Origin: Eledone cirrhosa
Taxonomy: Eukaryota
Reading direction: 5' to 3'
DNA: 64,000 bases
NCBI GenBank assembly: GCA_964016885.1
Contig: OZ024752.1
Coordinates: forward strand, 6,820,001 to 6,884,000
Below are positions 1 to 55,369 of the stretch, piece after piece. The number at the start of each line of letters is the position of its first letter. The stretch's first letter is position 1. The notes beneath the pieces were generated by a model. It did no database searches and had not been told where the DNA came from. It saw only the letters and a program-made list of their open reading frames with translations. The translations under genes were made by a program, and so were the position numbers.

Positions 1-1710
1 TACCTCACATAATATCTCGCATAACATTTACATTACTCTATATATGCTATTGTATTTTCACAGTAAAGACTTTACCTCACATAATATCTCGCATAACATT
101 TACATTACTCTATATATACTATTGTATTGTCACAGTAAAGGCTTTACCTCACATAATATCTCCCATAACATTTACATTACTCTATATATGCTATTGTATT
201 TTCACAGTAAAGACTTTACCTCACATAATATCTCACATAACATTTACATTACTCTATATATACTATTGCATTGTCACAGTAAGGGCTTTACCTCACATAA
301 TATCTCACATAACATTTACATTACTAAATATATACTATTGTATTTTCACAGTAAAGACTTTACCTCACATAATATCTCACATAACATTTACATTACTCTA
401 TATATACTATTGTATTGTCACAGTAAGGGCTTTACCTCACATAATATCTCACATAACATTTACATTACTCTATATTTACTATGGCATTTTCACAGTAAAG
501 GCTTTACCTCACATAATATCTCACATAACATTTACATTACTCTATATATACTATTGTATTTTCACAGTAAAGACTTTACCTCATAATATTTACATTACTC
601 TATATATACTATTGTATTTTCACAGTAAAGGCTTTACCTCACATAATATCTCACATAACATTTACATTACTCTATATATACTATTGTATTTTCACAGTAA
701 AGGCTTTACCTCACATAATATCTCACATAACATTTACATTACTCTATATTTACTATGGCATTTTCACAGTAAAGGCTTTACCTCACATAATATCTCACAT
801 AACATTTACATTACTCTATATATACTATTGTATTTTCACAGTAAAGACTTTACCTCATAATATTTACATTACTCTATATATACTATTGTATTTTCACAGT
901 AAAGGCTTTACCTCACATAATATCTCACATAAATTTACATTACTCTATATTTACTATGGCATTTTCACAGTAAAGGCTTTACCTCACATAATATCTCACA
1001 TAACATTTACATTACTCTATATTTACTATTGTATTTTCACAGTAAAGGCTTTACCTCACATAATATCTCACATAACATTTACATTACTCTATATATACTA
1101 TTGTATTTTCACAGTAAAGGCTTTACCTCACATAATATCTCACATAACATTTACATTACTCTATATATACTATTGTATTTTCACAGTAAAGGCTTTACCT
1201 CACATAATATCTCACATAACATTTACATTACTCTATATTTACTATTGTATTTTCACAGTAAAGGCTTTACCTCACATAATATCTCACATAACATTTATAT
1301 TACTCTATATATACTATTGTATTTTCACAGTAAAGGCTTTACCTCACATAATATCTCACATAACATTTACCTTACTCTATATATACTATTGTATTGTCAC
1401 AGTAAAGGCTTTACCTCACATAATATCTCACATAACATTTACATTACTCTATATATACTATTGCATTTTCACAGTAAAGGCTTTACCTCACATAAATTTA
1501 CATTACTCTATATTTACTATAGCATTTTCACAGTAAAGGCTTTTTACCTCACATAATTATATCACATAGTATGGAATCTATGAGATTTTGATATTTATTT
1601 TGAGAACAATACCTTAAAGTCGATATGAGGGGCCAGTTATGGCTGGTTTGAACAGAAAGAGGTGAGAGCATTCTGGCCGGATATGGCTGGTTTAAATGCT
1701 AAAGAGTTAA
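1..1710 (+). repeat. 72-bp tandem array (about 21 units, runs off the window edge) inside the TTAA MITE
   Basis: Unit tacctcacataatatctcacataacatttacattactctatatatactattgtattttcacagtaaaggctt to about 1555, then the MITE body ending aaagagTTAA at 1710. Confidence 0.92.
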
Positions 1711-3284: not shown

Positions 3285-4265
3285 TGTTACACAGTACAAC
3301 ATCACACTGTGTAACACAGTACAACATCACACCATGTAACACAGTACAACATTACACTGTGTAACAGTACATCACACCGTGTAACACAGTACATCACTAC
3401 ACCATGTAACACAGTACATCACTACACCATGTAACACAGTACATCACACCATGTAACAGAGTACATCACTACACCATGTAACACAGTACATCACTACACC
3501 ATGTAACACAGTACATCACTACACCATGTAACACAGTACATCACTACACCATGTAACACAGTACATCACACCGTGTAACACAGTACATCACTACACCATG
3601 TAACACAGTACATCACACCGTGTAACACAGTACATCACTACACCATGTAACACAGTACATCACACCGTGTAACACAGTACATCACTACACCATGTAACAC
3701 AGTACATCACACCATGTAACAGTACATCACACCATGTTACACAGTACAACATTACACTGTGTAACACAGTACAACATTACACTGTGTAACAGTACATCAC
3801 ACCATGTAACACAGTACATCATCACACCATGTTACACAGTACATCATCACACCATGTTACACAGTACATCACACCATGTAACAGAGTACATCATCACACC
3901 ATGTTACACAGTACATCATCACACCATGTTACACAGTACATCACACCATGTAACACAGTGCATCACACCATGTAACACAGTGCATCACACCATGTAACAG
4001 AGTACATCATCACACATGTTACACAGTACATCACACCATGTAACACAGTACATCACACCATGTAACAGAGTACATCATCACACCATGTAACAGAGTACAT
4101 CATCACACCATGTAACACAGTACATCATCACACCATGTAACACAGTACATCACACCATGTAACAGAGTACATCATCACACCATGTAACAGAGTACATCAC
4201 ACTATGTAACAGTACTCTGTTACATGGTGTGATGTACTGTGTTACCATCACACCATGTTACACCG
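3285..4265. repeat. 22-25 bp minisatellite
   Basis: Unit catgtaacacagtacatca(tca/cta)cac. Confidence 0.93.
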
Positions 4266-4586
4266 TTCTTTAACCAATGTATGTCAGAGAAGATGTCTGG
4301 CCTTCATTCCTGATATCAGAAATGAGATAAAAGACTGAAGACGCAGCAGTAAGATAGCAAATGAACTGGAAAGCAACACAGGTCATCTGCTTCTACAGTA
4401 TTTCAGATAAAACCAGACCGGACTAATGTCAAACTGTGTCTAGAATAAAATAACTTTTTCACTTTTTCACTTTTTCACAGAATATCTTTTTTGCAATATT
4501 TTATATCCATTCATCTATACATCATCATCATTGTTTTAACATCTGCTTTCCTTGCTAGTAAGGGTTCGACTATGTTTGTGTATATA

Positions 4587-4619
<33 letters not shown>

Positions 4620-4633
4620 TTAATAGAGAAATG

Positions 4634-4674
4634 GCTTCTATAGGGCTAGAACTGATTCATTCGACGGAAATCAT
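4634..4674 (-). pseudogene. Truncated, degenerate family A hammerhead copy
   Basis: Minus strand ..ATGA T TTC cgtc GAA T GAAT CAG ttctagcc CTATA GAAGC. The 5' core is missing and GAAA is mutated; flanked by (TA)n. Confidence 0.55.
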
Positions 4675-4784
4675 TGTATATATATATATATATGTATGCA
4701 AAAGGTAAACAGAAATAACAACACAATCAGTACAGTATATGGAAGAGATATATTAGGTTAACGCTTGATATAGCAGGAAGAGGG

Positions 4785-4820
4785 TCTTAATGTTTCGGAC
4801 GCTAGTCCTTCATCAGAAAA
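4785..4820 (-). ncRNA. Hammerhead-like motif with weak stem I
   Basis: Minus strand tttt-CTGATGA-a-GGAC tagc GTCC-GAAACATTA-agac. Core and stem II are clear; stems I and III are marginal. Confidence 0.55.
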
Positions 4821-4861
4821 AAGAAGGAAAAATAAGATAGATTGAGGGGACGGGCGGGTTG

Positions 4862-4907
<46 letters not shown>

Positions 4908-5081
4908 GTTATTCCGGGTTGAGTCGGAGGTAACCACAGTAAGTAAGGTACTCAATATATTGCAGAGTATAAAAGTGTTAATATAAATGAGATTCTACAG
5001 GACTAGAACTGTTTCATTCTTTAGAAATCATCAGGAATCCAGTGAAACAGTTCTAGTCCTGTAGAATCTCATCTATATTAA

Positions 5082-5084
<3 letters not shown>
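4908..5084 (-). mobile_element. Short non-autonomous Penelope-like/retrozyme element (family A) with inverted partial duplication
   Basis: Hammerhead followed by a tail (TATTGAGTACCTTACTTACTGTGGTTACCTCCGACTCAACCCGGAATAAC) that recurs at about 18460-18518 and 18800-18880. 5043-5084 is an inverted copy of about 4976-5017. (TA)n on both sides. Confidence 0.65.
4991..5039 (-). ncRNA. Type I hammerhead ribozyme motif (family A)
   Basis: Minus strand GATTC-CTGATGA-T TTC taaa GAA T-GAAACAG ttctagtc CTGTA^GAATC: stem I GATTC/GAATC, stem III ACAG/CTGT, GUA triplet. The base of stem II is a U-U mismatch. Confidence 0.8.
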
Positions 5085-5127
<43 letters not shown>

Positions 5128-5422
5128 TCTAATGAAAAACACTGTCTATGATTTTCAAATAATTTTGAAAATAGAATAATATGAAGGGGCTGAAACATTC
5201 ATCGACTGACTATGAAGGAGTGATGCTAGAGTTATCTTGCATACATTAATTTCAACTTTTTTTATTAATAACTGCATTGTTTCTTTCATTTGGCCATTCC
5301 ATGAGAGTATCTTGGTCAGCCAACCTTCATATAACTAGCTTTCTCATTATGAAGATGGTGTATGAAACAAAACTCAAAGATTCTTACGTAAAATTATGAT
5401 TTTTTAGATAAATATAAAAACT

Positions 5423-5633
5423 TTAACCCTTTATTAATTAAACCAGCCGTATCTGGCCAGAATTCCCTCACCTCTTTTTATTCAAACTGGCTGTAACCAG
5501 CTGCTCATACTGATGTTAAGATATTGTTCTCAAAATAAATAATATCTCATAGATTCAATATTATGTGAGATAAAGCCTTTACCATGAAAATATAATAGTA
5601 TATATAAAGTAATGTAAATGGTAAAAGGGTTAA
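5423..5633 (-). mobile_element. TTAA-flanked piggyBac-like MITE (unexpanded copy)
   Basis: TTAACCCTTT...AAAGGGTTAA ends. Same internal sequence at 37457-37663, 43216-45512 and 1-1710. Confidence 0.7.
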
Positions 5634-17974: not shown

Positions 17975-18214
17975 CTCCACTGATGAGATGAATTTAACAG
18001 AAGTTGCCAAGTAAACAAACCACAAATAGTAGACTTTATTTTATATATATATATATATATATATAAGAATTAAAATACTAGAGTGTGTTGGAGTTAAACA
18101 CCCTCTACATATTATAGAAATGACAGTAAAGGTATAGCTCAATGTAATTAAACAGAGCCGAAAAATTATGAAAATAAACCAAAGAAGCCTTCAATACATC
18201 AAAAGTCTTTATTA

Positions 18215-18252
18215 GCCAACAATGTTTCGTCCTATTAAGGACTCATCAGGGC
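18215..18252 (-). ncRNA. Minimal type I hammerhead ribozyme motif
   Basis: Minus strand reads GCC-CTGATGA-GTCCT taat AGGAC-GAAA-CATTGTT^GGC: intact core, 5-bp stem II, short quasi-palindromic stem III (ACATTGT), GUU cleavage triplet, stem I GCC/GGC. Confidence 0.85.
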
Positions 18253-18297
18253 AAGTAAAGCTATAAGAAGCACTATCGGCCAATACAAGCCAAAAAC

Positions 18298-18322
<25 letters not shown>

Positions 18323-18329
<7 letters not shown>

Positions 18330-18520
18330 TTTTATAGAAGGAGCTTCTACAGGACTAGTACTGTTTCATTCAGATGAAATCTTCAGGAAGCCCTGAAGAT
18401 TTCATCTGAATGAAACAGTACTAGTCCTGTAGAAGCTCCTTCTATAAAATAAAAAATTTTACTCTGCCATGTATTGAGTACCTTACTTACTGTGGTTATC
18501 CCCGACTCAACCCGGGACCT
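18323..18520 (+). mobile_element. Family A element with a 65-bp perfect inverted repeat
   Basis: Arms 18323-18387 and 18392-18456 with loop AAGC, continuing into the family A tail; (TA)n on both sides. Confidence 0.7.
18343..18391 (-). ncRNA. Type I hammerhead ribozyme motif (family A), left arm of a perfect palindrome
   Basis: Minus strand GCTTC-CTGAAGA-T TTC atct GAA T-GAAACAG tactagtc CTGTA^GAAGC. The mirror copy on the plus strand (18392-18436) lacks the 5' strand of stem I. Confidence 0.8.
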
Positions 18521-18660
18521 ATGTATATATATATATATATATATATGCAGAGGTTATATTTAATTTGTTGGGATTCAACAAGCTTTATCCAGGAAGCTCC
18601 AACCGTTAAGGTGTTCTTTTTTTTCCGGGTATGTCAATATTTATTTATACAACAAATCTG

Positions 18661-18726
18661 TATTTTATCTGATGAAAGCGCACCATAATTTGCCTTGGTT
18701 GCCCTTGAAATATGTATAATAAAATA
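18661..18726 (+). ncRNA. Type I hammerhead ribozyme motif
   Basis: TATTTTAT-CTGATGA-AAGcGCACCA taatttgcct TGGtTGCcCTT-GAAA-TATGTATA^ATAAAATA: 8-bp stem I, imperfect stem II, AUA triplet. Confidence 0.72.
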
Positions 18727-19174
18727 AATATGGTTTTATAAATATAGTTTCCATTTATTAATATATTGTATATATATATATATATATATATATAGTTTTA
18801 ATATATTAAAACTTTTATACTCTGCCATGTATTGAGTACCTTACTTACTGTGGTTACCTCCGATTCAACCCGGAATAACTTACCTATATATATATATATA
18901 TATAACCAAAGATTAATATGGTTTGTTGATTAATCAACAAATACAATATTACAATAGATTAGAAGCACTCAGCAGTTGATTTTTCTGGAGTTTTTAATAT
19001 TATTCAAAATGTTAATAAATGAAAAATATTCTCATAATTAAAATATATATTTTATTATACATATTTCAAAGGTACAATGGTGTTTAAGTACGTTTTCATC
19101 AGACAAAATATAAGATTTGATATGTGACACCGCTACGGTCTTGATTATTCAATTCCAGTATTGACAATACATTC

Positions 19175-19224
<50 letters not shown>

Positions 19225-43215: not shown

Positions 43216-45512
43216 TTAACCGTTTAACATTTAAACCGGCCATATCTGGCTAGAATTCTCTCACCTCTTTCTATTCAAACCAGCTGCTCATACTTATGTT
43301 AAGGTATTGTTCTCAAAATAAATAATATCAAAATCTCTTAGATTCAATATTATGTGAGATATTATGTGAGGTAAAGTCTTTACTGTGAAAATACTATAGT
43401 ATATATAGAGTAATGTAAATGTTATGTGAGATATTATGTGAGGTAAAGCCTTTACTGTGAAAATACAATAGTATATATAGAGTAATGTAAATGGTATGTG
43501 AGATATTATGTGAGGTAAAGCCTTTACTGTGAAAATACAATAGTATATATAGAGTAATGTAAATGTTATCTGAGATATTATGTGAGGTAAAGCCTTTACT
43601 GTGAAAATACAATAGTATATATAGAGTAATGTAAATGTTATCTGAGATATTATGTGAGGTAAAGCCTTTACTGTGAAAATACAATAGTATATATAGAGTA
43701 ATGTAAATGTTATCTGAGATATTATGTGAGGTAAAGCCTTTACTGTGAAAATACAATAGTATATATAGAGTAATGTAAATGTTATCTGAGATATTATGTG
43801 AGGTAAAGCCTTTACTGTGAAAATACAATAGTATATATAGAGTAATGTAAATGTTATCTGAGATATTATGTGAGGTAAAGCCTTTACTGTGAAAATACAA
43901 TAGTATATATAGAGTAATGTAAATGTTATCCGAGATATTATGTGAGGTAAAGCCTTTACTGTGAAAATACAATAGTATATATAGAGTAATGTAAATGTTA
44001 TCTGAGATATTATGTGAGGTAAAGCCTTTACTGTGAAAATACAATAGTATATATAGAGTAATGTAAATGTTATCTGAGATATTATGTGAGGTAAAGCCTT
44101 TACTGTGAAAATACAATAGTATATATAGAGTAATGTAAATGGTATGTGAGATATTATGTGAGGTAAAGCCTTTACTGTGACAATACAATAGTATATATAG
44201 AGTAATGTAAATGTTGTGAGATATTATGTGAGGTAAAGCCTTTACTGTGAAAATACAATAGTATATATAGAGTAATGTAAATGTTATGTGATATTATGTG
44301 AGGTAATTATGTGAGGCCTTTACTGTGAAAATACAATAGTATATATAGAGTAATGTAAATGTTATGTGAGATATTATGTGAGGTAAAGCCTTTACTGTGA
44401 AAATACAATAGTATATATAGAGTAATGTAAATGTTATGTGAGGTAAAGCCTTTACTGTGAAAATACAATAGTATATATAGAGTAATGTAAATGGTATGTG
44501 AGATATTATCTGAGGTAAAGCCTTTACTGTGACAATACAATAGTATATATAGAGTAATGTAAATGTTGTGAGATATTATGTGAGGTAAAGCCTTTACTGT
44601 GAAAATACAATAGTATATATAGAGTAATGTAAATGTTATGTGATATTATGTGAGGTAATTATGTGAGGCGTTTACTGTGAAAATACAATAGTATATATAG
44701 AGTAATGTAAATGTTATGTGAGATATTATGTGAGGTAAAGCCTTTACTGTGAAAATACAATAGTATATATAGAGTAATGTAAATGTTATGTGAGATATTA
44801 TGTGAGGTAAAGCCTTTACTGTGAAAATACAATAGTATATATAGAGTAATGTAAATGTTATGTGATATTATGTGAGGTAATTATGTGAGGCCTTTACTGT
44901 GAAAATACAATAGTATATATAGAGTAATGTAAATGTTATGTGATATTATGTGAGGTAATTATGTGAGGCCTTTACTGTGAAAATACAATAGTATATATAG
45001 AGTAATGTAAATGTTATGTGAGATATTATGTGAGGGTAAAGCCTTTACTGTGAAAATACAATAGTATATATAGAGTAATGTAAATGTTATGTGAGGTAAA
45101 GCCTTTACTGTGAAAATACAATAGTATATATAGAGTAATGTAAATGTTATGTGATATTATGTGAGGTAATTATGTGAGGCGTTTACTGTGAAAATACAAT
45201 AGTATATATAGAGTAATGTAAATGTTATGTGAGATATTATGTGAGGTAAAGCCTTTACTGTGAAAATACAATAGTATATATAGAGTAATGTAAATGTTAT
45301 GTGAGATATTATGTGAGGTAAAGCCTTTACTGTGAAAATACAATAGTATATATAGAGTAATGTAAATGTTATGTGAGATATTATGTGAGGTAAAGCCTTT
45401 ACTGTGAAAATACAATAGTATATATAGAGTAATGTAAATGTTATGTGAGGTAAAGCCTTTACTGTGAAAATACAATAGTATATATAGAGTAATGTAAATG
45501 GTAAAGGGTTAA
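43216..45512 (-). repeat. Same MITE with an internal 72-bp array (about 30 units), opposite orientation
   Basis: Reverse complement of the 1-1555 unit from about 43350 to 45500, bounded by TTAACC and AAAGGGTTAA. Confidence 0.92.
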
Positions 45513-49268: not shown

Positions 49269-49597
49269 GGAGGCACATGGCTTAGTGGTTAGAGCATTGG
49301 GCTTGCAATCGAAAGGTTGTGAGTTCAATTCTCAGACCGGGTGATGTGTTGTTTCCTTGAGCAAGACACTTTATTTCACATTGCTCCAGTTTACTCAGCT
49401 GTAGAAATGAGATGATAGGGACTGGGGTCCCTATCATTCCACTGTAAAGTGGTCGTGGAGGTGCCACGGCAAAAAAGCACCCAGCACTCACTGTAAATGA
49501 GGTTGGTGTTAGGAAGGGCATCCAGCTGTAGAAATCAAGCCAGAATCAGTTCCCGTCCCACCCTTGCAAGCGGGGAGAGGCGGACGTAAAATGATGA
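49269..49597 (+). mobile_element. tRNA-derived SINE family 2 with RTE-type tail
   Basis: A box TGGCTTAGTGG, B box GAGTTCAATTC, central TCCTTGAGCAAGACACTT, then GTTAGGAAGGGCATCCAGC and a GGACGTAAAATGATGA tail. Confidence 0.88.
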
Positions 49598-50091
49598 AAT
49601 GCTGATATATATAATTGTTTCTACTTTAGGCACAAGGCCAGCAATTACCCAGTACATTACTGGTACTTTATTTTATCGACCCCGTAAGGATGAAAGGCAA
49701 AGTTAACCTCGGCGGAATTTGAACTCGGACTGTAAAGGGACGTAACTATGCTAGAAAACATGGCATCCAACCCTCTATCGATACTGCCAATTCACCAAAG
49801 GTTAAACAAGGTTCAATGAATAAATCAATAAATAAAGTTTCACAATAGATTAGAAGCACTATAATGTATATATATATATATATATCAGTATGTGGTTATA
49901 TATATACAATGTATATATAAAAAAAAAAAACCTCACATCGATTATGTGTTTGTATTAACTGAAGGCGGGTTTTCTGTTGTATATAAATGTATATAAATTT
50001 TGAGTAACAACCCAACCAGGAAGTGGACATTGTATTGACGGAGTTAAACACTTCAACAACATGTGTACCTGTCTCTACCACACCAATTCGG

Positions 50092-50146
50092 ACTGCCTGA
50101 AGAGGTCACAGCCAATCATGGCTGTCACCGAAATATATATAGCAGT
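50092..50146 (+). ncRNA. Minimal type I hammerhead ribozyme motif (family B)
   Basis: ACTGC-CTGAAGA-GGTcACAGCCA atca TGGCTGTcACC-GAAA-TATATATA^GCAGT: stem I ACTGC/GCAGT, long stem II, palindromic AT stem III, AUA triplet. Confidence 0.88.
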
Positions 50147-50455
50147 AATAAACGAAGCCAAATTTTAAATATTTGACTTAATTACTTTATTTTACAATGT
50201 ATATATATATATATATATATCAGTATGTGGTTATATATATACAATGTATATATATATATATATATATACAATATATATATATATACAATATATATACAAT
50301 ATATATATATATACAATATATATATATATATACAATATATATATATATACAATATATATATATATACAATATATATATATAATATATATATATATAAATA
50401 TTGTATATATATATATATACAATATATATATATATATATATATATCAGTATGTGG

Positions 50456-50502
<47 letters not shown>

Positions 50503-50781
50503 TATACATTTGCTGGGGTTGCCTGGATGTGTCCACATAAATTTCTCTGAGAAGAAAAAAGAAAATGGTTGAGATAGGGAACAGTATCCCACCTTTGAAC
50601 AGAATTAAGCGTTGTGTATACTATGTTCCAACTTGAAGGTGTTTGAGGGTCTCCTAACAGTTGTCTGATTGAGCTGAAATTTTGCACACCCAGTTTTTTT
50701 GTTTTGGAACACGATTAGGGGGGTGGGGGGTGGGAGCAAATTTTAACTTTCAGAAAATTACCTATAGCTAAGGGCCGCCCT

Positions 50782-50833
<52 letters not shown>

Positions 50834-50840
<7 letters not shown>

Positions 50841-51525
50841 TAATTTAATATATCTACTAACATAAGCGCACAGATGTATGCTAATGCCAGCAAATACACA
50901 GGTTATGTCATAGTACCTAGGTGGTTCAATGCAGGAGGATGCAGAACAATAATATAAAAGACGTAAAATAAGAACATTTAAAAAAAAAAAAAAAAAAAAT
51001 ATTGTTCTGCATCCTCCTGCATTGAACAACCTAGGTACTATGACATAACCTGTGTATTTGCTGGCATTAGCGTACATCTGTGCGCTTATATTAGTAGATA
51101 TATTAAATTATCTATATTTATCTCCAAATCACTGATTTGTCGAGCAAACCTGCCAAAACCACTACTAAAATTTTTTTGGGGGTGTTAGTAGGCGTCTGTC
51201 ATCTTACCATCCCATTCCTATTGACTAGCCTCTGTGTCACGTGATTGATTCTTTAGAATCGGCCATTTGACCAGTGGCAGTGAGAATTTTCAGTGCCTGG
51301 AATCCAGTCCTCGATAGCTGTTCCATTTACCAAATTATTATTATTTTTATATGAGTCCCCAGTGTCCGCGCATTGCCTGGAGACTTGGCTGAGAATAGAC
51401 CTCCCTGATGACGCAATGAAATTCTCAACAGTTCATTACGTAACTGTCTTTATCCCATTGCAGAAACTAATTAGTTGGAGTGAAAATTTAAGTAAGTTAA
51501 TTCTTTAAAATTTTTTTTTTTTACG

Positions 51526-51532
<7 letters not shown>
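50834..51532 (+). mobile_element. Putative Penelope-like terminal-repeat remnant with a 118-bp inverted duplication
   Basis: Arms 50834-50951 and 51000-51117 (3 mismatches seen). The spacer contains the reverse complement of the element's far end (TTTTACGTCTTTTATA, about 51518-51534). Decayed CTGATGA plus hairpin at 51405-51440; (TA)n flanks. Confidence 0.5.
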
Positions 51533-51564
<32 letters not shown>

Positions 51565-51593
51565 CATATATATATATATACATATATATATAC

Positions 51594-51626
<33 letters not shown>

Positions 51627-51943
51627 AATCTGGGTTAAATTTTTTCCAAAGAATGCTGGATTGAATGCAAATTGAGTTCAAATGAAGTGTGACTTTAACA
51701 TATTTCTCAGGGAGACAGGTCTTTGAATTACAGGTACATTCCATCCAACAGGTTTTCAACAGCTTCTGTTTACACAATTTCACTGAAAAAGCAGGGGTCA
51801 ACCTGAGGCTGTGGTAAAAGGCACCCAATATGTCCCAGATATAGGATTGAACCTGGGACCCAATGATTAATAAACTTCTTCATTTTTCTGTGCTACATTC
51901 GTCATAAAAAGAAGATCAAACAAAAGAAAAAGGTGAAACTTAC

Positions 51944-52679: not shown

Positions 52680-52852
52680 TCTATCAGAATTTCTGTATAA
52701 AACTATTTGGTAAATATATACTTTCTTATACAGCTCTCTACACATAAATAGTTATATTTTTATCCTTGATTATGAGAGCACGAATATATATATATATATA
52801 AACAAGAAGTGTAAGTCAACAGGTTAAAATTAGCTTCGTTTATTCATATTCA

Positions 52853-52905
52853 CTGCTATATTTCGGTGATAGCCATTATTCAACAGCTATGACCTCATCA
52901 GGCAG
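52853..52905 (-). ncRNA. Minimal type I hammerhead ribozyme motif (family B)
   Basis: Minus strand CTGC-CTGATGA-GGTcATAGCTGTT gaat AATGGCTATcACC-GAAA-TATA^GCAG. Stem II covaries with the 50092 copy, and both share the downstream tail AATAAACGAAGC..AATTTTAA..TTGACTTA. Confidence 0.85.
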
Positions 52906-53334
52906 CTAGAACTTGGACAGAAAAAAAACAAGAAAACATAATGATGGAACAAAGTTTACCTCTGTTATTTCGTTGATATGCCCAGTTCAAAAGTGTGGTG
53001 GTGTTTTCTCAAAGAACTGGTGGCATATCTTTGTTAAACTTGGACTTTTATTATTTTAAATATTAATGCTCTACTACATCAACTGTCCTCAACAACAACA
53101 ACAACAACAACAAAGACTTATTCGTCTGTTTTAAACTCCTTACAAGCAGACGATATTAGGGTGTTGAGAGCTTCTCTCATCTTACCAATAATTATAGTGG
53201 AATACTCCCCTATAATCACCTATATTTATAATGTAGATTTCCAATGTATATCAGGAGGTGAGTACAATTAAAAAAGGAACTCAATATGTTAATAGAATAT
53301 AGGTATATTTATAATATATCTTATTATAGAAATA

Positions 53335-53384
53335 ACTTCCACAGGACTAGAACTGTTTCATTCATAAGAAATCATCAGGAAAGT
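53335..53384 (-). ncRNA. Family A hammerhead motif, probably inactive
   Basis: Minus strand ACTTTC-CTGATGA-T TTC ttat GAA T-GAAACAG ttctagtc CTGTG GAAGT. The cleavage triplet is GUG, which breaks the NUH rule. Confidence 0.65.
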
Positions 53385-54506
53385 CCTGGAAATACTCGAT
53401 TTAGTGTCCGAGCATGCGGTTACCCCACATAGAATGAGAGACCCTAGTTCATTCTCAGAGGCTATTCTCATTAATAGAACCAAAACATTAAACAACAGGA
53501 GTTACATGAAACCAATTGACTGTTGTGATTGCGCCAGTCTGTACATGGCACCAATCCTCCAACTTAATTTCTACGCAGTAGAGAACCTCTAGCCATCAAA
53601 ACCAGAGTCAATTTCCTTTCCTTTGAAAAGGGGAACCTAATCCCGAAATATCATAAAATATAAGGTAAGCTGTTTTGTTTTGTTTTCTAACACTAGTTTT
53701 CACTCATGATTTTGTAATTTACATTGTCTTTTATAACCAAATAAATTACCAGTCAGTAATGGGGTCAATACTTCTACTACTCCCTCCTTTCTTTGGAAGA
53801 AAGCATCTCTGTTCAGATATAGCGAGAGGGGGGGGGGGGACTCTACAACTCCATCAGGAATGTGTGGATCAAGACTGGATAAATGGTTGGTTGGTTAGTA
53901 GCGAAACTTGTATATTTGATTTTTTTTTTGTATAAATAATATTTGTAATGAATATTTCTCTAAGAAAACAAGTGAAGCATGTGTAATGAGAAATCTTGAG
54001 TGAAATATCACATTTTTTCATATGTTATTTTAATGGAATTATAACGACACCGAACAAGTTTAGAGAATACAATATAAAATCTTTAACTCGGATGGAAAGA
54101 TCCAATCAAATCAAATTTGAATTTAATCTTTATTACAGAGAAACTGCAAACTTATACTTTATTCAATTAAAGAGTAAACAACTACGAATATAATCTCATT
54201 TCAGTTCAATCATCATTATTGTTGTTGTTGCTGTTGTTGTTGTTAATGTTATTGTTGCTATTGTTAATATTATTGTTGTTATTGTTGTAGTGGTGGTTAT
54301 TATTGTTAGTTGTTATTACTGTTGTAGTGGTGGTTATTATTGTTAGTTGTTGTTATTATTATTGTTACTATTGTTGTTATTGTTAATGTTATTGTTGTTA
54401 TTAATGTTATTGTTATTGTTGTTATTAATATTATTATTGTTAGTTATAATTGTTGTTGCTATAGTTGTTGTGGTGGTTGTTGTGATTGTTATTGTTATTA
54501 TTATTG

Positions 54507-55036: not shown

Positions 55037-55369
55037 GAGGCACATGGCTTAGTGGTTAGAGCATTGGGCTTGCAATCGAAAGGTTGTGAGTTCAATTCTC
55101 AGACCGGGTGATGTGTTGTTTCCTTGAGCAAGACACTTTATTTCACATTACTCAAGTTTACTCAGCTGTAGAAATGAGATGATAGGGACTCGGTTCCCTA
55201 TCATTCCACAGCAAAGTGGTCGTGGAGGTGCCACGGCAAAAAAGCACCCAGTACTCACTGTAAATGAGGTTGGTGTTAGGAAGGGCATCCAGCTGTAGAA
55301 ATCAAGCCAGCATCAGTTCCCGTCCCACCCTGGCAAGCAGAGAAAAGTGGACGTAAAATGATGATGATG

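What the first reader, a model, noticed from the sequence alone, without database searches (positions are those of the whole stretch)
18040..18905. Ribozyme pile-up: four inserts and three hammerhead families in one fragmented (TA)n tract
Seen: (TA)n - insert with HHR 18215(-) - (TA)n - palindromic family A element - (TA)n - insert with HHR 18661(+) - (TA)n - family A tail - (TA)n, all within about 860 bp. The same pattern occurs at 4580-5120 (three inserts), and TA runs also flank the elements near 49860-50250, 50780-51630 and 52785. Inference: these elements target (TA)n microsatellites, which act as repeated landing pads.
Basis: partly seen in the sequence, partly recalled or inferred. Interest (0 to 1): 0.72.

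Follow-up and report, generated by a model that had tools for sequence, protein, structure and literature searches.

The report
Five Penelope stubs in one microsatellite
This TA repeat holds five separate cut-short end pieces of Penelope-like jumping genes, four carrying a predicted self-cutting RNA motif; such elements are already known to land in TA repeats, so the pile-up is real but ordinary, although one family's short copies stop at a spot that likely marks the start of the element's RNA.

Summary
Four inserts (A1, A2, B, C) are ends of dispersed repeat families (221-2512 first-look candidates each). Each was traced to a long element with an RT + GIY-YIG frame between pseudo-LTRs and the Hydra-clade motifs RW[K/R], DKT, CxCX5C and no CCHH. 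The fifth (D) has the same ribozyme and tail layout but was not traced to a frame. TA targeting is real: 42 of 50 hammerhead motifs in a 790-kb sample have (TA)5+ within 150 nt downstream, against 11.8% of random sites. It is published for Hydra elements, including an Octopus family. The tract is not one composite element. Re-use of a tract beyond local density is not shown (p 0.08-0.27). The palindrome is the known inverted, 5'-truncated copy plus one-sided tail, with a new junction in each copy. Extra: A1 arms stop 5-7 nt before the ribozyme core (17 of 24; 0.8 expected), 29 nt below a TATA box, sometimes with an extra G. They are likely run-off copies of the capped RNA start. The scan noted both readings before on other DNA.

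The parts
18042..18065 (.). (TA)n run 1 (part of the split target tract)
18066..18297 (-). Insert B: 5'-truncated 3' end of a Hydra-type PLE. Long (tail) end at 18066, hammerhead core at 18249, predicted cut after 18218, truncated 48 nt above the core
   Evidence: linked frame between two pLTRs in L316, also L128/L129
18298..18320 (.). (TA)n run 2
18321..18523 (+). Insert A1: head-to-head pair. Inverted tail-less arm 18323-18387 (whole hammerhead on -, core 18386), direct arm 18392-18456 (core 18393, stem I truncated), one-sided tail to 18523
   Evidence: linked frames in L320, L322, L326
18524..18546 (.). (TA)n run 3
18547..18585 (-). Insert C, left piece: 39-nt inverted long (tail) end of family C
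18586..18768 (+). Insert C, right piece: 5'-truncated arm with hammerhead (core 18669, predicted cut after 18718) ending at the short end; it starts at family C's common 5' stop (about -83 to -85)
   Evidence: linked frame in L313 and L314
18769..18794 (.). (TA)n run 4
18795..18884 (+). Insert A2 stub: 18-bp fold-back (18795-18812) plus tail, no ribozyme core; the end of a family with intact 758-codon frames
18885..18904 (.). (TA)n run 5
18905..19176 (-). Link to a coding element inferred, not tested
   Evidence: 91% copy in L263

Best explanation
The tract holds five separate 5'-truncated end pieces of repeat families, four of them traced to Hydra-type Penelope-like retrotransposons (the fifth likely the same), which likely inserted one after another by target-primed reverse transcription into one (TA)n microsatellite. 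Shown: separate dispersed families, fixed 3' ends abutting TA, variable 5' ends, long parent elements with an RT + GIY-YIG frame between pseudo-LTRs, and a long end and a short end in families A1, A2, B and C. Inferred from published work on a related element (PMC11167929): the endonuclease nicks both strands of the TA tract; the RT starts at one of two internal sites in the RNA (long end with tail, or short end 5-14 nt before a shared hairpin); two cDNAs made from the two strands join head to head by microhomology, giving TA at both sides. Each insertion leaves TA on both flanks, so the target survives. Inferred for A1: most short copies are run-off cDNAs that reached the capped 5' end of an uncut transcript starting 5-6 nt before the ribozyme core.
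For: Family status and flanks. Parent elements: L121, L123 and L124 hold a 758-codon open frame (98.8-100% identical) next to hammerhead + tail pLTRs; 18 of 150 genome hits have that same open frame. A1, B and C link to frames 72-78%, 38-45% and 36-45% identical to it. Hydra motifs in all four match the diagnosis in PMC8557442 section 11. TA enrichment. Junctions differ from copy to copy. Long + short pairing: 19 of 29 tail-selected A1 loci have an inverted arm, all tail-less (read by eye); B 4 of 4 and C most inverted arms end short. Hammerhead stems show two-sided changes between families, e.g. stem I GCTTC/GAAGC vs GATTC/GAATC and stem II AAG/CTT, AAA/TTT, AGG/CCT. A1 stop: 17 of 24 arms at risk end at -7..-5 vs 0.83 expected; TATAAA lies 29 nt above in 14 of 17 long copies.
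Against: Pfam gave only a sub-threshold GIY-YIG hit (E 0.008) and no RT family for the L121 protein; the RT call rests on the YRDD motif, on homologs and on by-eye comparison with the paper's alignment. No tree with reference PLEs was built. Parent units are about 3.1-5.2 kb, longer than the 'generally <3 kb' of Hydra. D was not traced to a frame. The 5' stop is sharp in A1, suggestive in C (7 of 8 alignments reaching -82 end by -88, but no clear TATA box), weak in A2 (5 of 36 at -7..-5) and absent in B (3 of 24 at -47..-49, 11 far longer). The extra G is weak (8/13 vs 5/21, p 0.04), and 13 of 18 informative -5 arms have T instead. Arms of one insertion are not independent, so that p-value is optimistic. 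Minimum-energy folds of the isolated A motifs do not give the hammerhead fold.
Confidence: 0.92

Rival explanations
1. Family A is a fixed, non-autonomous palindromic element (MITE-like or two-armed retrozyme) that is copied as a unit.
For: 40 of 40 scored hits match the 191-nt unit at 98-100%, and the palindrome centre sits at nearly the same place in many copies.
Against: That search selected for the same centre. With single-arm and tail-only queries the junction differs in almost every copy, with fillers, shorter arms, no inverted arm, or long 5' extensions into a coding element. The tail lies outside the inverted repeat.
Confidence: 0.03
2. The fold-backs arise by self-priming on an antisense template (proposal in PMC3846280, passages read), not from two sense cDNAs primed on both strands.
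For: Head-to-head palindromes are the common form, and the stem I region of A1 contains a 4-nt self-complementary word that could fold back.
Against: Both outer ends are fixed family 3' ends abutting TA (long and short), many junctions hold fillers or unequal arms, and insert C joins a 39-nt tail end to a distant 5' point. In vitro, a related protein cuts and extends both strands from two RNA start sites (PMC11167929, parts 1-2 read).
Confidence: 0.15
3. The sharp 5' stop in A1 reflects RT stalling at ribozyme stem I, or microhomology at the self-complementary word, not the end of a capped RNA.
For: The stop coincides with the 5' strand of stem I; 45 of 77 arms at -7..-5 are explained by fold-back overlap; B shows no such stop.
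Against: The RT has already opened stem I when it arrives there (inference). The stop lies 29-30 nt below TATAAA in both A1 and A2 parents. Non-parent G or T precedes most informative arms (26 of 32). Only 1 of 43 arms ends between -40 and -8.
Confidence: 0.35
4. The pile-up is only what local density of elements and TA tracts gives; no tract is a preferred landing pad.
For: Within-locus shuffles: 27 vs 22.7, p 0.18, p 0.08-0.27. These elements cover more DNA on small chromosomes, such as the window's (485 vs 259 bp per 10 kb, p 0.013, a library with one SINE-containing member).
Against: Genome-wide shuffles are exceeded (p 0.002-0.025). One library version gave within-locus p 0.008. The longest run in 790 kb was 3, against 5 here.
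Confidence: 0.5

Closest known systems
Hydra clade of C-terminal EN+ Penelope-like elements (Craig et al. 2021, PMC8557442; abstract, section 11, passages and supplement rows read), including Hydra-1_Obim of Octopus bimaculoides
   Same: Single RT + C-terminal GIY-YIG frame; RW[K/R], DKT, CxCX5C linker, no CCHH, CxxC and CxH near the end; hammerhead in the pLTR; (TA)n insertion preference; inverted 5'-truncated copy with one-sided tail.
   Different: Different families: a 15-nt piece of the Hydra-1_Obim ribozyme had 0 matches in all held DNA, and the protein differs by eye. RWR in place of RWK. Units of about 3.1-5.2 kb (long, partly microsatellite 3' UTR). Tails of about 65-100 nt rather than 30-40.
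Poseidon element of Anolis, PAc (Frangieh et al. 2024, PMC11167929; parts 1-2 of 4 read)
   Same: Two RT start sites bounding the tail, cutting of both strands at AT-rich DNA, and uncut RNA as template fit the long/short ends and the copies that span the ribozyme cut site.
   Different: Other clade; targets ATT, not (TA)n. The parts read do not describe a 5' pile-up at a start site.
Adineta vaga Penelope elements (Arkhipova et al. 2013, PMC3846280; passages read)
   Same: Direct and inverted pLTRs, palindromic junctions, tail, and a TATA box with Inr-like site in the pLTR.
   Different: Few copies, clear target-site duplications; an antisense self-priming model was proposed.
Non-LTR retrozymes and PLE minimal hammerheads (bioRxiv 10.64898/2026.07.22.740005, part 1 of 5 read; PMC4209133, passages read)
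   Same: Type I hammerheads with a short, palindromic helix III or loop 3.
   Different: The inserts here are not tandem non-coding units; four of five are ends of coding elements.

Membership tests
EN+ Penelope-like element | Single ORF with RT and C-terminal GIY-YIG endonuclease | tested here: met
   L121/L123/L124 (A2) and L322 (A1) are open over the whole length; B and C are broken or frameshifted in the copies seen. YRDD and VY..YIG/YVG motifs present. Pfam GIY-YIG only sub-threshold, no RT family.
EN+ Penelope-like element | Pseudo-LTRs from partial tandems flanking the ORF | tested here: met
   Two direct copies around the frame in L121 (A2), L320 and L326 (A1), L316 (B), L313 (C)
EN+ Penelope-like element | 5' truncation, adjacent inverted truncated copy and optional one-sided tail | tested here: met
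EN+ Penelope-like element | Hammerhead motif in the pLTR | tested here: met
   Motif scan and two-sided stem changes; no Rfam hit
EN+ Penelope-like element | Target-site duplication | tested here: inconclusive
   Cannot be discerned inside (TA)n; the same problem is stated in PMC8557442
Hydra clade | RWK motif and DKT in place of DKG | tested here: met
   DKT in A1, A2, B and C; RWR (K to R) in all four. Homolog P0001 also has RWR, P0003 has RWK
Hydra clade | CxCX5C linker; no CCHH in the endonuclease; CxxC and CxH near the conserved E and N | tested here: met
   CxCX5C in A1, A2, B and C, with no CxxC between the GIY- and YIG-like words; CxxC in A1, A2 and B, CxH in A1, A2 and the B copy L128. 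C's C-terminus is broken in the copies seen
Hydra clade | Insertion into (TA)n | tested here: met
Hydra clade | Placement in the Hydra branch of an RT tree | not tested
   Reference proteins were seen only as supplement text and compared by eye
Hydra clade | Descriptive trait, not part of the motif diagnosis: 'generally short (<3 kb)' | tested here: not met
   pLTR-to-pLTR spacing about 3.1-4.3 kb (A1), 5.2 kb (A2), 4.6 kb (B), 4.4 kb (C) in single copies that may hold later insertions
Hydra clade (insert D) | Link to a Hydra-type ORF | not tested
   Only its hammerhead type and tail hairpin are shared with C
Non-LTR retrozyme | Non-coding tandem units, each with a type I hammerhead | tested here: not met
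   A1, A2, B and C continue into coding elements; not tandem in the tract
MITE | Fixed length with terminal inverted repeats at both ends | tested here: not met
   Variable junction and arm length; the tail lies outside the inverted repeat
Type I hammerhead ribozyme | Self-cleavage | not testable with these tools
   No RNA holder listed; no clear pile-up of 5' ends at the cut site (A1 1 of 43 at +39; C ambiguous)

The most novel reading that the evidence does not exclude
Most of the roughly 10^5 ribozyme-bearing stubs in this genome are not random RT drop-offs but PLE 'strong-stop' DNAs. The RT would start at the tail copy near the 5' end of its own capped, uncut mRNA, run about 130 nt to the cap, and do so on both nicked strands from two start sites set by a tail hairpin shared across Hydra families. 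This would give a genomic read-out of the promoter and priming rules of Hydra elements, and show that the ribozyme mostly stays uncut on insertion templates in vivo.
Probability: 0.45. Interest if true: 0.55.

Novelty: new member of a known kind. Interest (0 to 1): 0.3.

Why it matters
The main finding explains the site by a known class and a published target preference. It adds several undescribed Hydra-type families, one with many intact and nearly identical copies (18 of 150 hits with the full 758-codon frame), which makes it a good candidate for the first in vitro test of a (TA)n-targeting PLE. If the 5' stop is the capped start site, it tests an open question: how PLE inversions, tails and pLTRs are made, and whether the ribozyme cuts the template.

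Tried and rejected
Rfam at gathering threshold: no hammerhead family hit. Pfam: no RT family, weak GIY-YIG. Empty alleles: public contigs and RAD reads laid on 17975-19170 and 4265-5580 gave no listed piece spanning either tract, so nothing follows. Expression: no RNA holder listed. Ends at the ribozyme cut site: A1 1 of 43 arms; family C had about 3 of 20 loci near +48..+50, but stem I complementarity and AT-richness blur these, so they were not counted as evidence. A T-at--6 subfamily as the cause of the T before -5 arms: 16 of 17 long copies have A, so unlikely. The ungapped 5'-end mapping for B and C failed on indels and was dropped in favour. Clustering was tested four times with different libraries. 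The library held flanking DNA, the library held one SINE-containing member, and the library lacked 5' parts; one search is the cleanest. All four results are reported. The first raw G count at -6 (19/46 vs 13/50, p 0.13) was not significant before fold-back overlaps were removed. Composite element, MITE and retrozyme readings were rejected. Eight paper searches were answered. I saw listings for all and passages of seven papers. None of the passages describes a 5' pile-up at a PLE start site or the shared tail hairpin, but I did not read the whole texts, and unread supplements may.

Full report
Setting. The window is G000:C12:6820001-6884000 in a 3.0-Gb assembly of 1796 contigs. I take it for an octopus-like genome from SINE sequences that I recall; no call tested this.

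Observation. Five (TA)n runs and four inserts lie as described. The last belongs to a fifth insert (18905-19176) that abuts the fifth TA run. Rfam found no hammerhead at gathering score. The motifs are short type I forms with palindromic helix III or loop 3, as described for Penelope-like elements (PMC4209133, passages). Across held loci the stems show two-sided changes between families.

Separate elements. Each of the four inserts is a dispersed family: 1581, 2512, 632 and 221 first-look candidates, with the best 40 scored. Their tail ends abut TA in 28/29 (A1), 27/29 and 19/20 (B), 20/20 (C) and 25/29 (A2) other loci. B's 5' side abuts TA in 0 of 29, because most of those copies run on into the element. 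Among 223 near-full copies in held loci (redundant loci included), none lay within 80 nt of another in the window's order. The tract is not a composite element.

Parents. Two direct A2 ends 5.2 kb apart (L121) enclose a 758-codon open frame; L123 and L124 hold it intact at 98.8-98.9%, and 18 of 150 genome hits have the same open length. A1, B and C each sit on both sides of related frames (L320/L322/L326; L316; L313, and L314 on one side) at 72-78%, 38-45% and 36-45% identity. All carry RWR, DKT, YRDD and CxCX5C and lack CCHH (B and C seen as broken pieces). That is the diagnosis of the Hydra clade (PMC8557442 section 11). Its supplement lists (TA)n for all 20 Hydra rows shown, including Hydra-1_Obim of Octopus bimaculoides. 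Pfam gave only a weak GIY-YIG hit. A database search found 1416 homologs at E <= 1e-20 among 7994 scored, none of the 120 listed named. No tree was built. D was not traced to a frame; a 91% copy with both ends was found among held loci.

Anatomy of the palindrome. With queries that do not select for the centre, the junction differs in nearly every copy. One arm carries the tail (long end). The inverted arm stops at a fixed short end, 5-14 nt before a hairpin shared by A1, A2, B, C and D; the hairpin motif occurs in 68 of 112 long library members (redundant) vs 0 shuffled. This is the published 'inverted 5'-truncated copy plus one-sided tail'. In vitro work on a Poseidon element explains the tail by two internal RT start sites, with both DNA strands cut and extended and uncut RNA as the main template (PMC11167929). 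In the tract, A1 and the A2 stub pair short-left with long-right, C pairs long-left (39 nt) with short-right, and B and D are single truncated arms.

Target preference. I took 79 of 80 requested 10-kb stretches at round coordinates (small chromosomes are over-represented). The scan gave 53 motifs vs 1 in reversed sequence, of order 10^5 per genome. Of the 50 away from edges, 42 have (TA)5+ within 150 nt after the cut site vs 11.8% of random sites. Element 3' ends followed by TA: 86 of 138, a lower bound because long copies run through short ends. SINE ends: 11 of 54 and 14 of 79. Random: 10.9%. Targeting is therefore real and well above the SINE controls.

Landing pads. In the cleanest test, 51-63 of 995 inter-TA segments were element-filled. 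Adjacent pairs exceeded a genome-wide shuffle (p 0.002-0.025) but not clearly a within-locus shuffle (p 0.08-0.27). The other versions gave no excess, p 0.008 and p 0.18. Since every insertion leaves TA on both sides, the target survives (inference). Preferential re-use beyond local density is not shown, and no empty allele could be read.

A sharp 5' stop. Of 43 A1 arms from tail-selected and sampled loci, 19 end before -4 (relative to the first core base), 17 at -7..-5, 1 between -40 and -8, and 6 further out. The background rate predicts 0.83 at -7..-5 (arms are not fully independent). TATAAA lies 29 nt above position -6 in 14 of 17 long A1 copies and 30 nt above it in 43 of 47 A2 copies (not de-duplicated). 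After removing fold-back overlaps, 8 of 13 arms ending at -6 have a G that is not in the parent vs 5 of 21 elsewhere (p 0.04); 13 of 18 arms at -5 have T. An extra G marks the cap in full-length L1 insertions (PMC11702581, one passage). I infer run-off to the capped 5' end of an uncut RNA. C shows a similar cliff at -82..-88 (7 of 8) without a clear TATA box, A2 a weak one (5 of 36), and B none. I give this step about 0.55 for A1.

Earlier notes of the scan, read after my reading was written down, report Hydra-type fold-backs with a tail hairpin in this genome, the short-end/long-end rule elsewhere, and strong-stop copies in a Neptune-type family of another genome. They are unchecked AI notes and are not used as support. 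An Octopus vulgaris repeat paper lists 31 Penelope-like families, with no use of 'ribozyme' or 'Hydra' in its main text (PMC13282606, passages).

Verdict. A real pile-up of new family members of a known kind with a known target. Interest 0.3.

Noticed in passing
   Followed up: partly
tails of A1, A2, B, C, D; supplement of PMC8557442: A shared hairpin (RCTC..GAGY) opens the tail in all five families. By eye a similar motif lies at the 3' end of the coral element Hydra-2_Amil printed, so it may be clade-wide.
   Followed up: partly
window 4694-4872 (-): A different family with a minimal hammerhead lacking helix III; several copies end in (CA)n or (AC)n rather than (TA)n. Possibly a non-Hydra PLE or retrozyme.
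   Followed up: partly
window 50839-51530: Long fold-back element in (TA)n with about 150-nt inverted ends and a hammerhead-like motif with a long stem II at 51405 (+); dispersed relatives at 75-95%.
   Followed up: partly
window 49910-50200, 52801-52911, 53308-53388, 4620-4676: Further hammerhead-bearing or A-type ends, most of them beside TA runs.
   Followed up: partly
L121:4760-7100: The active A2 family carries about 2 kb of TA/TG microsatellite inside its 3' UTR, so it may seed new targets for itself wherever a long copy lands.
   Followed up: no
L345, L358: A1 insertions whose junction holds a piece from the end of the element's own coding region, suggesting template jumps.
   Followed up: no
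L141-L219: Hammerhead ends and SINEs both cover about twice as much DNA on small as on large chromosomes.
   Followed up: partly
window 49270-49600 and 55040-55365: tRNA-derived SINE copies whose 5' ends sit next to TA/GA runs; SINE ends abut TA about twice as often as random sites.
   Followed up: partly
window 1-1568 and 43346-44224: The same 72-bp satellite in opposite orientation, 95-97% alike, 42 kb apart.
   Followed up: no
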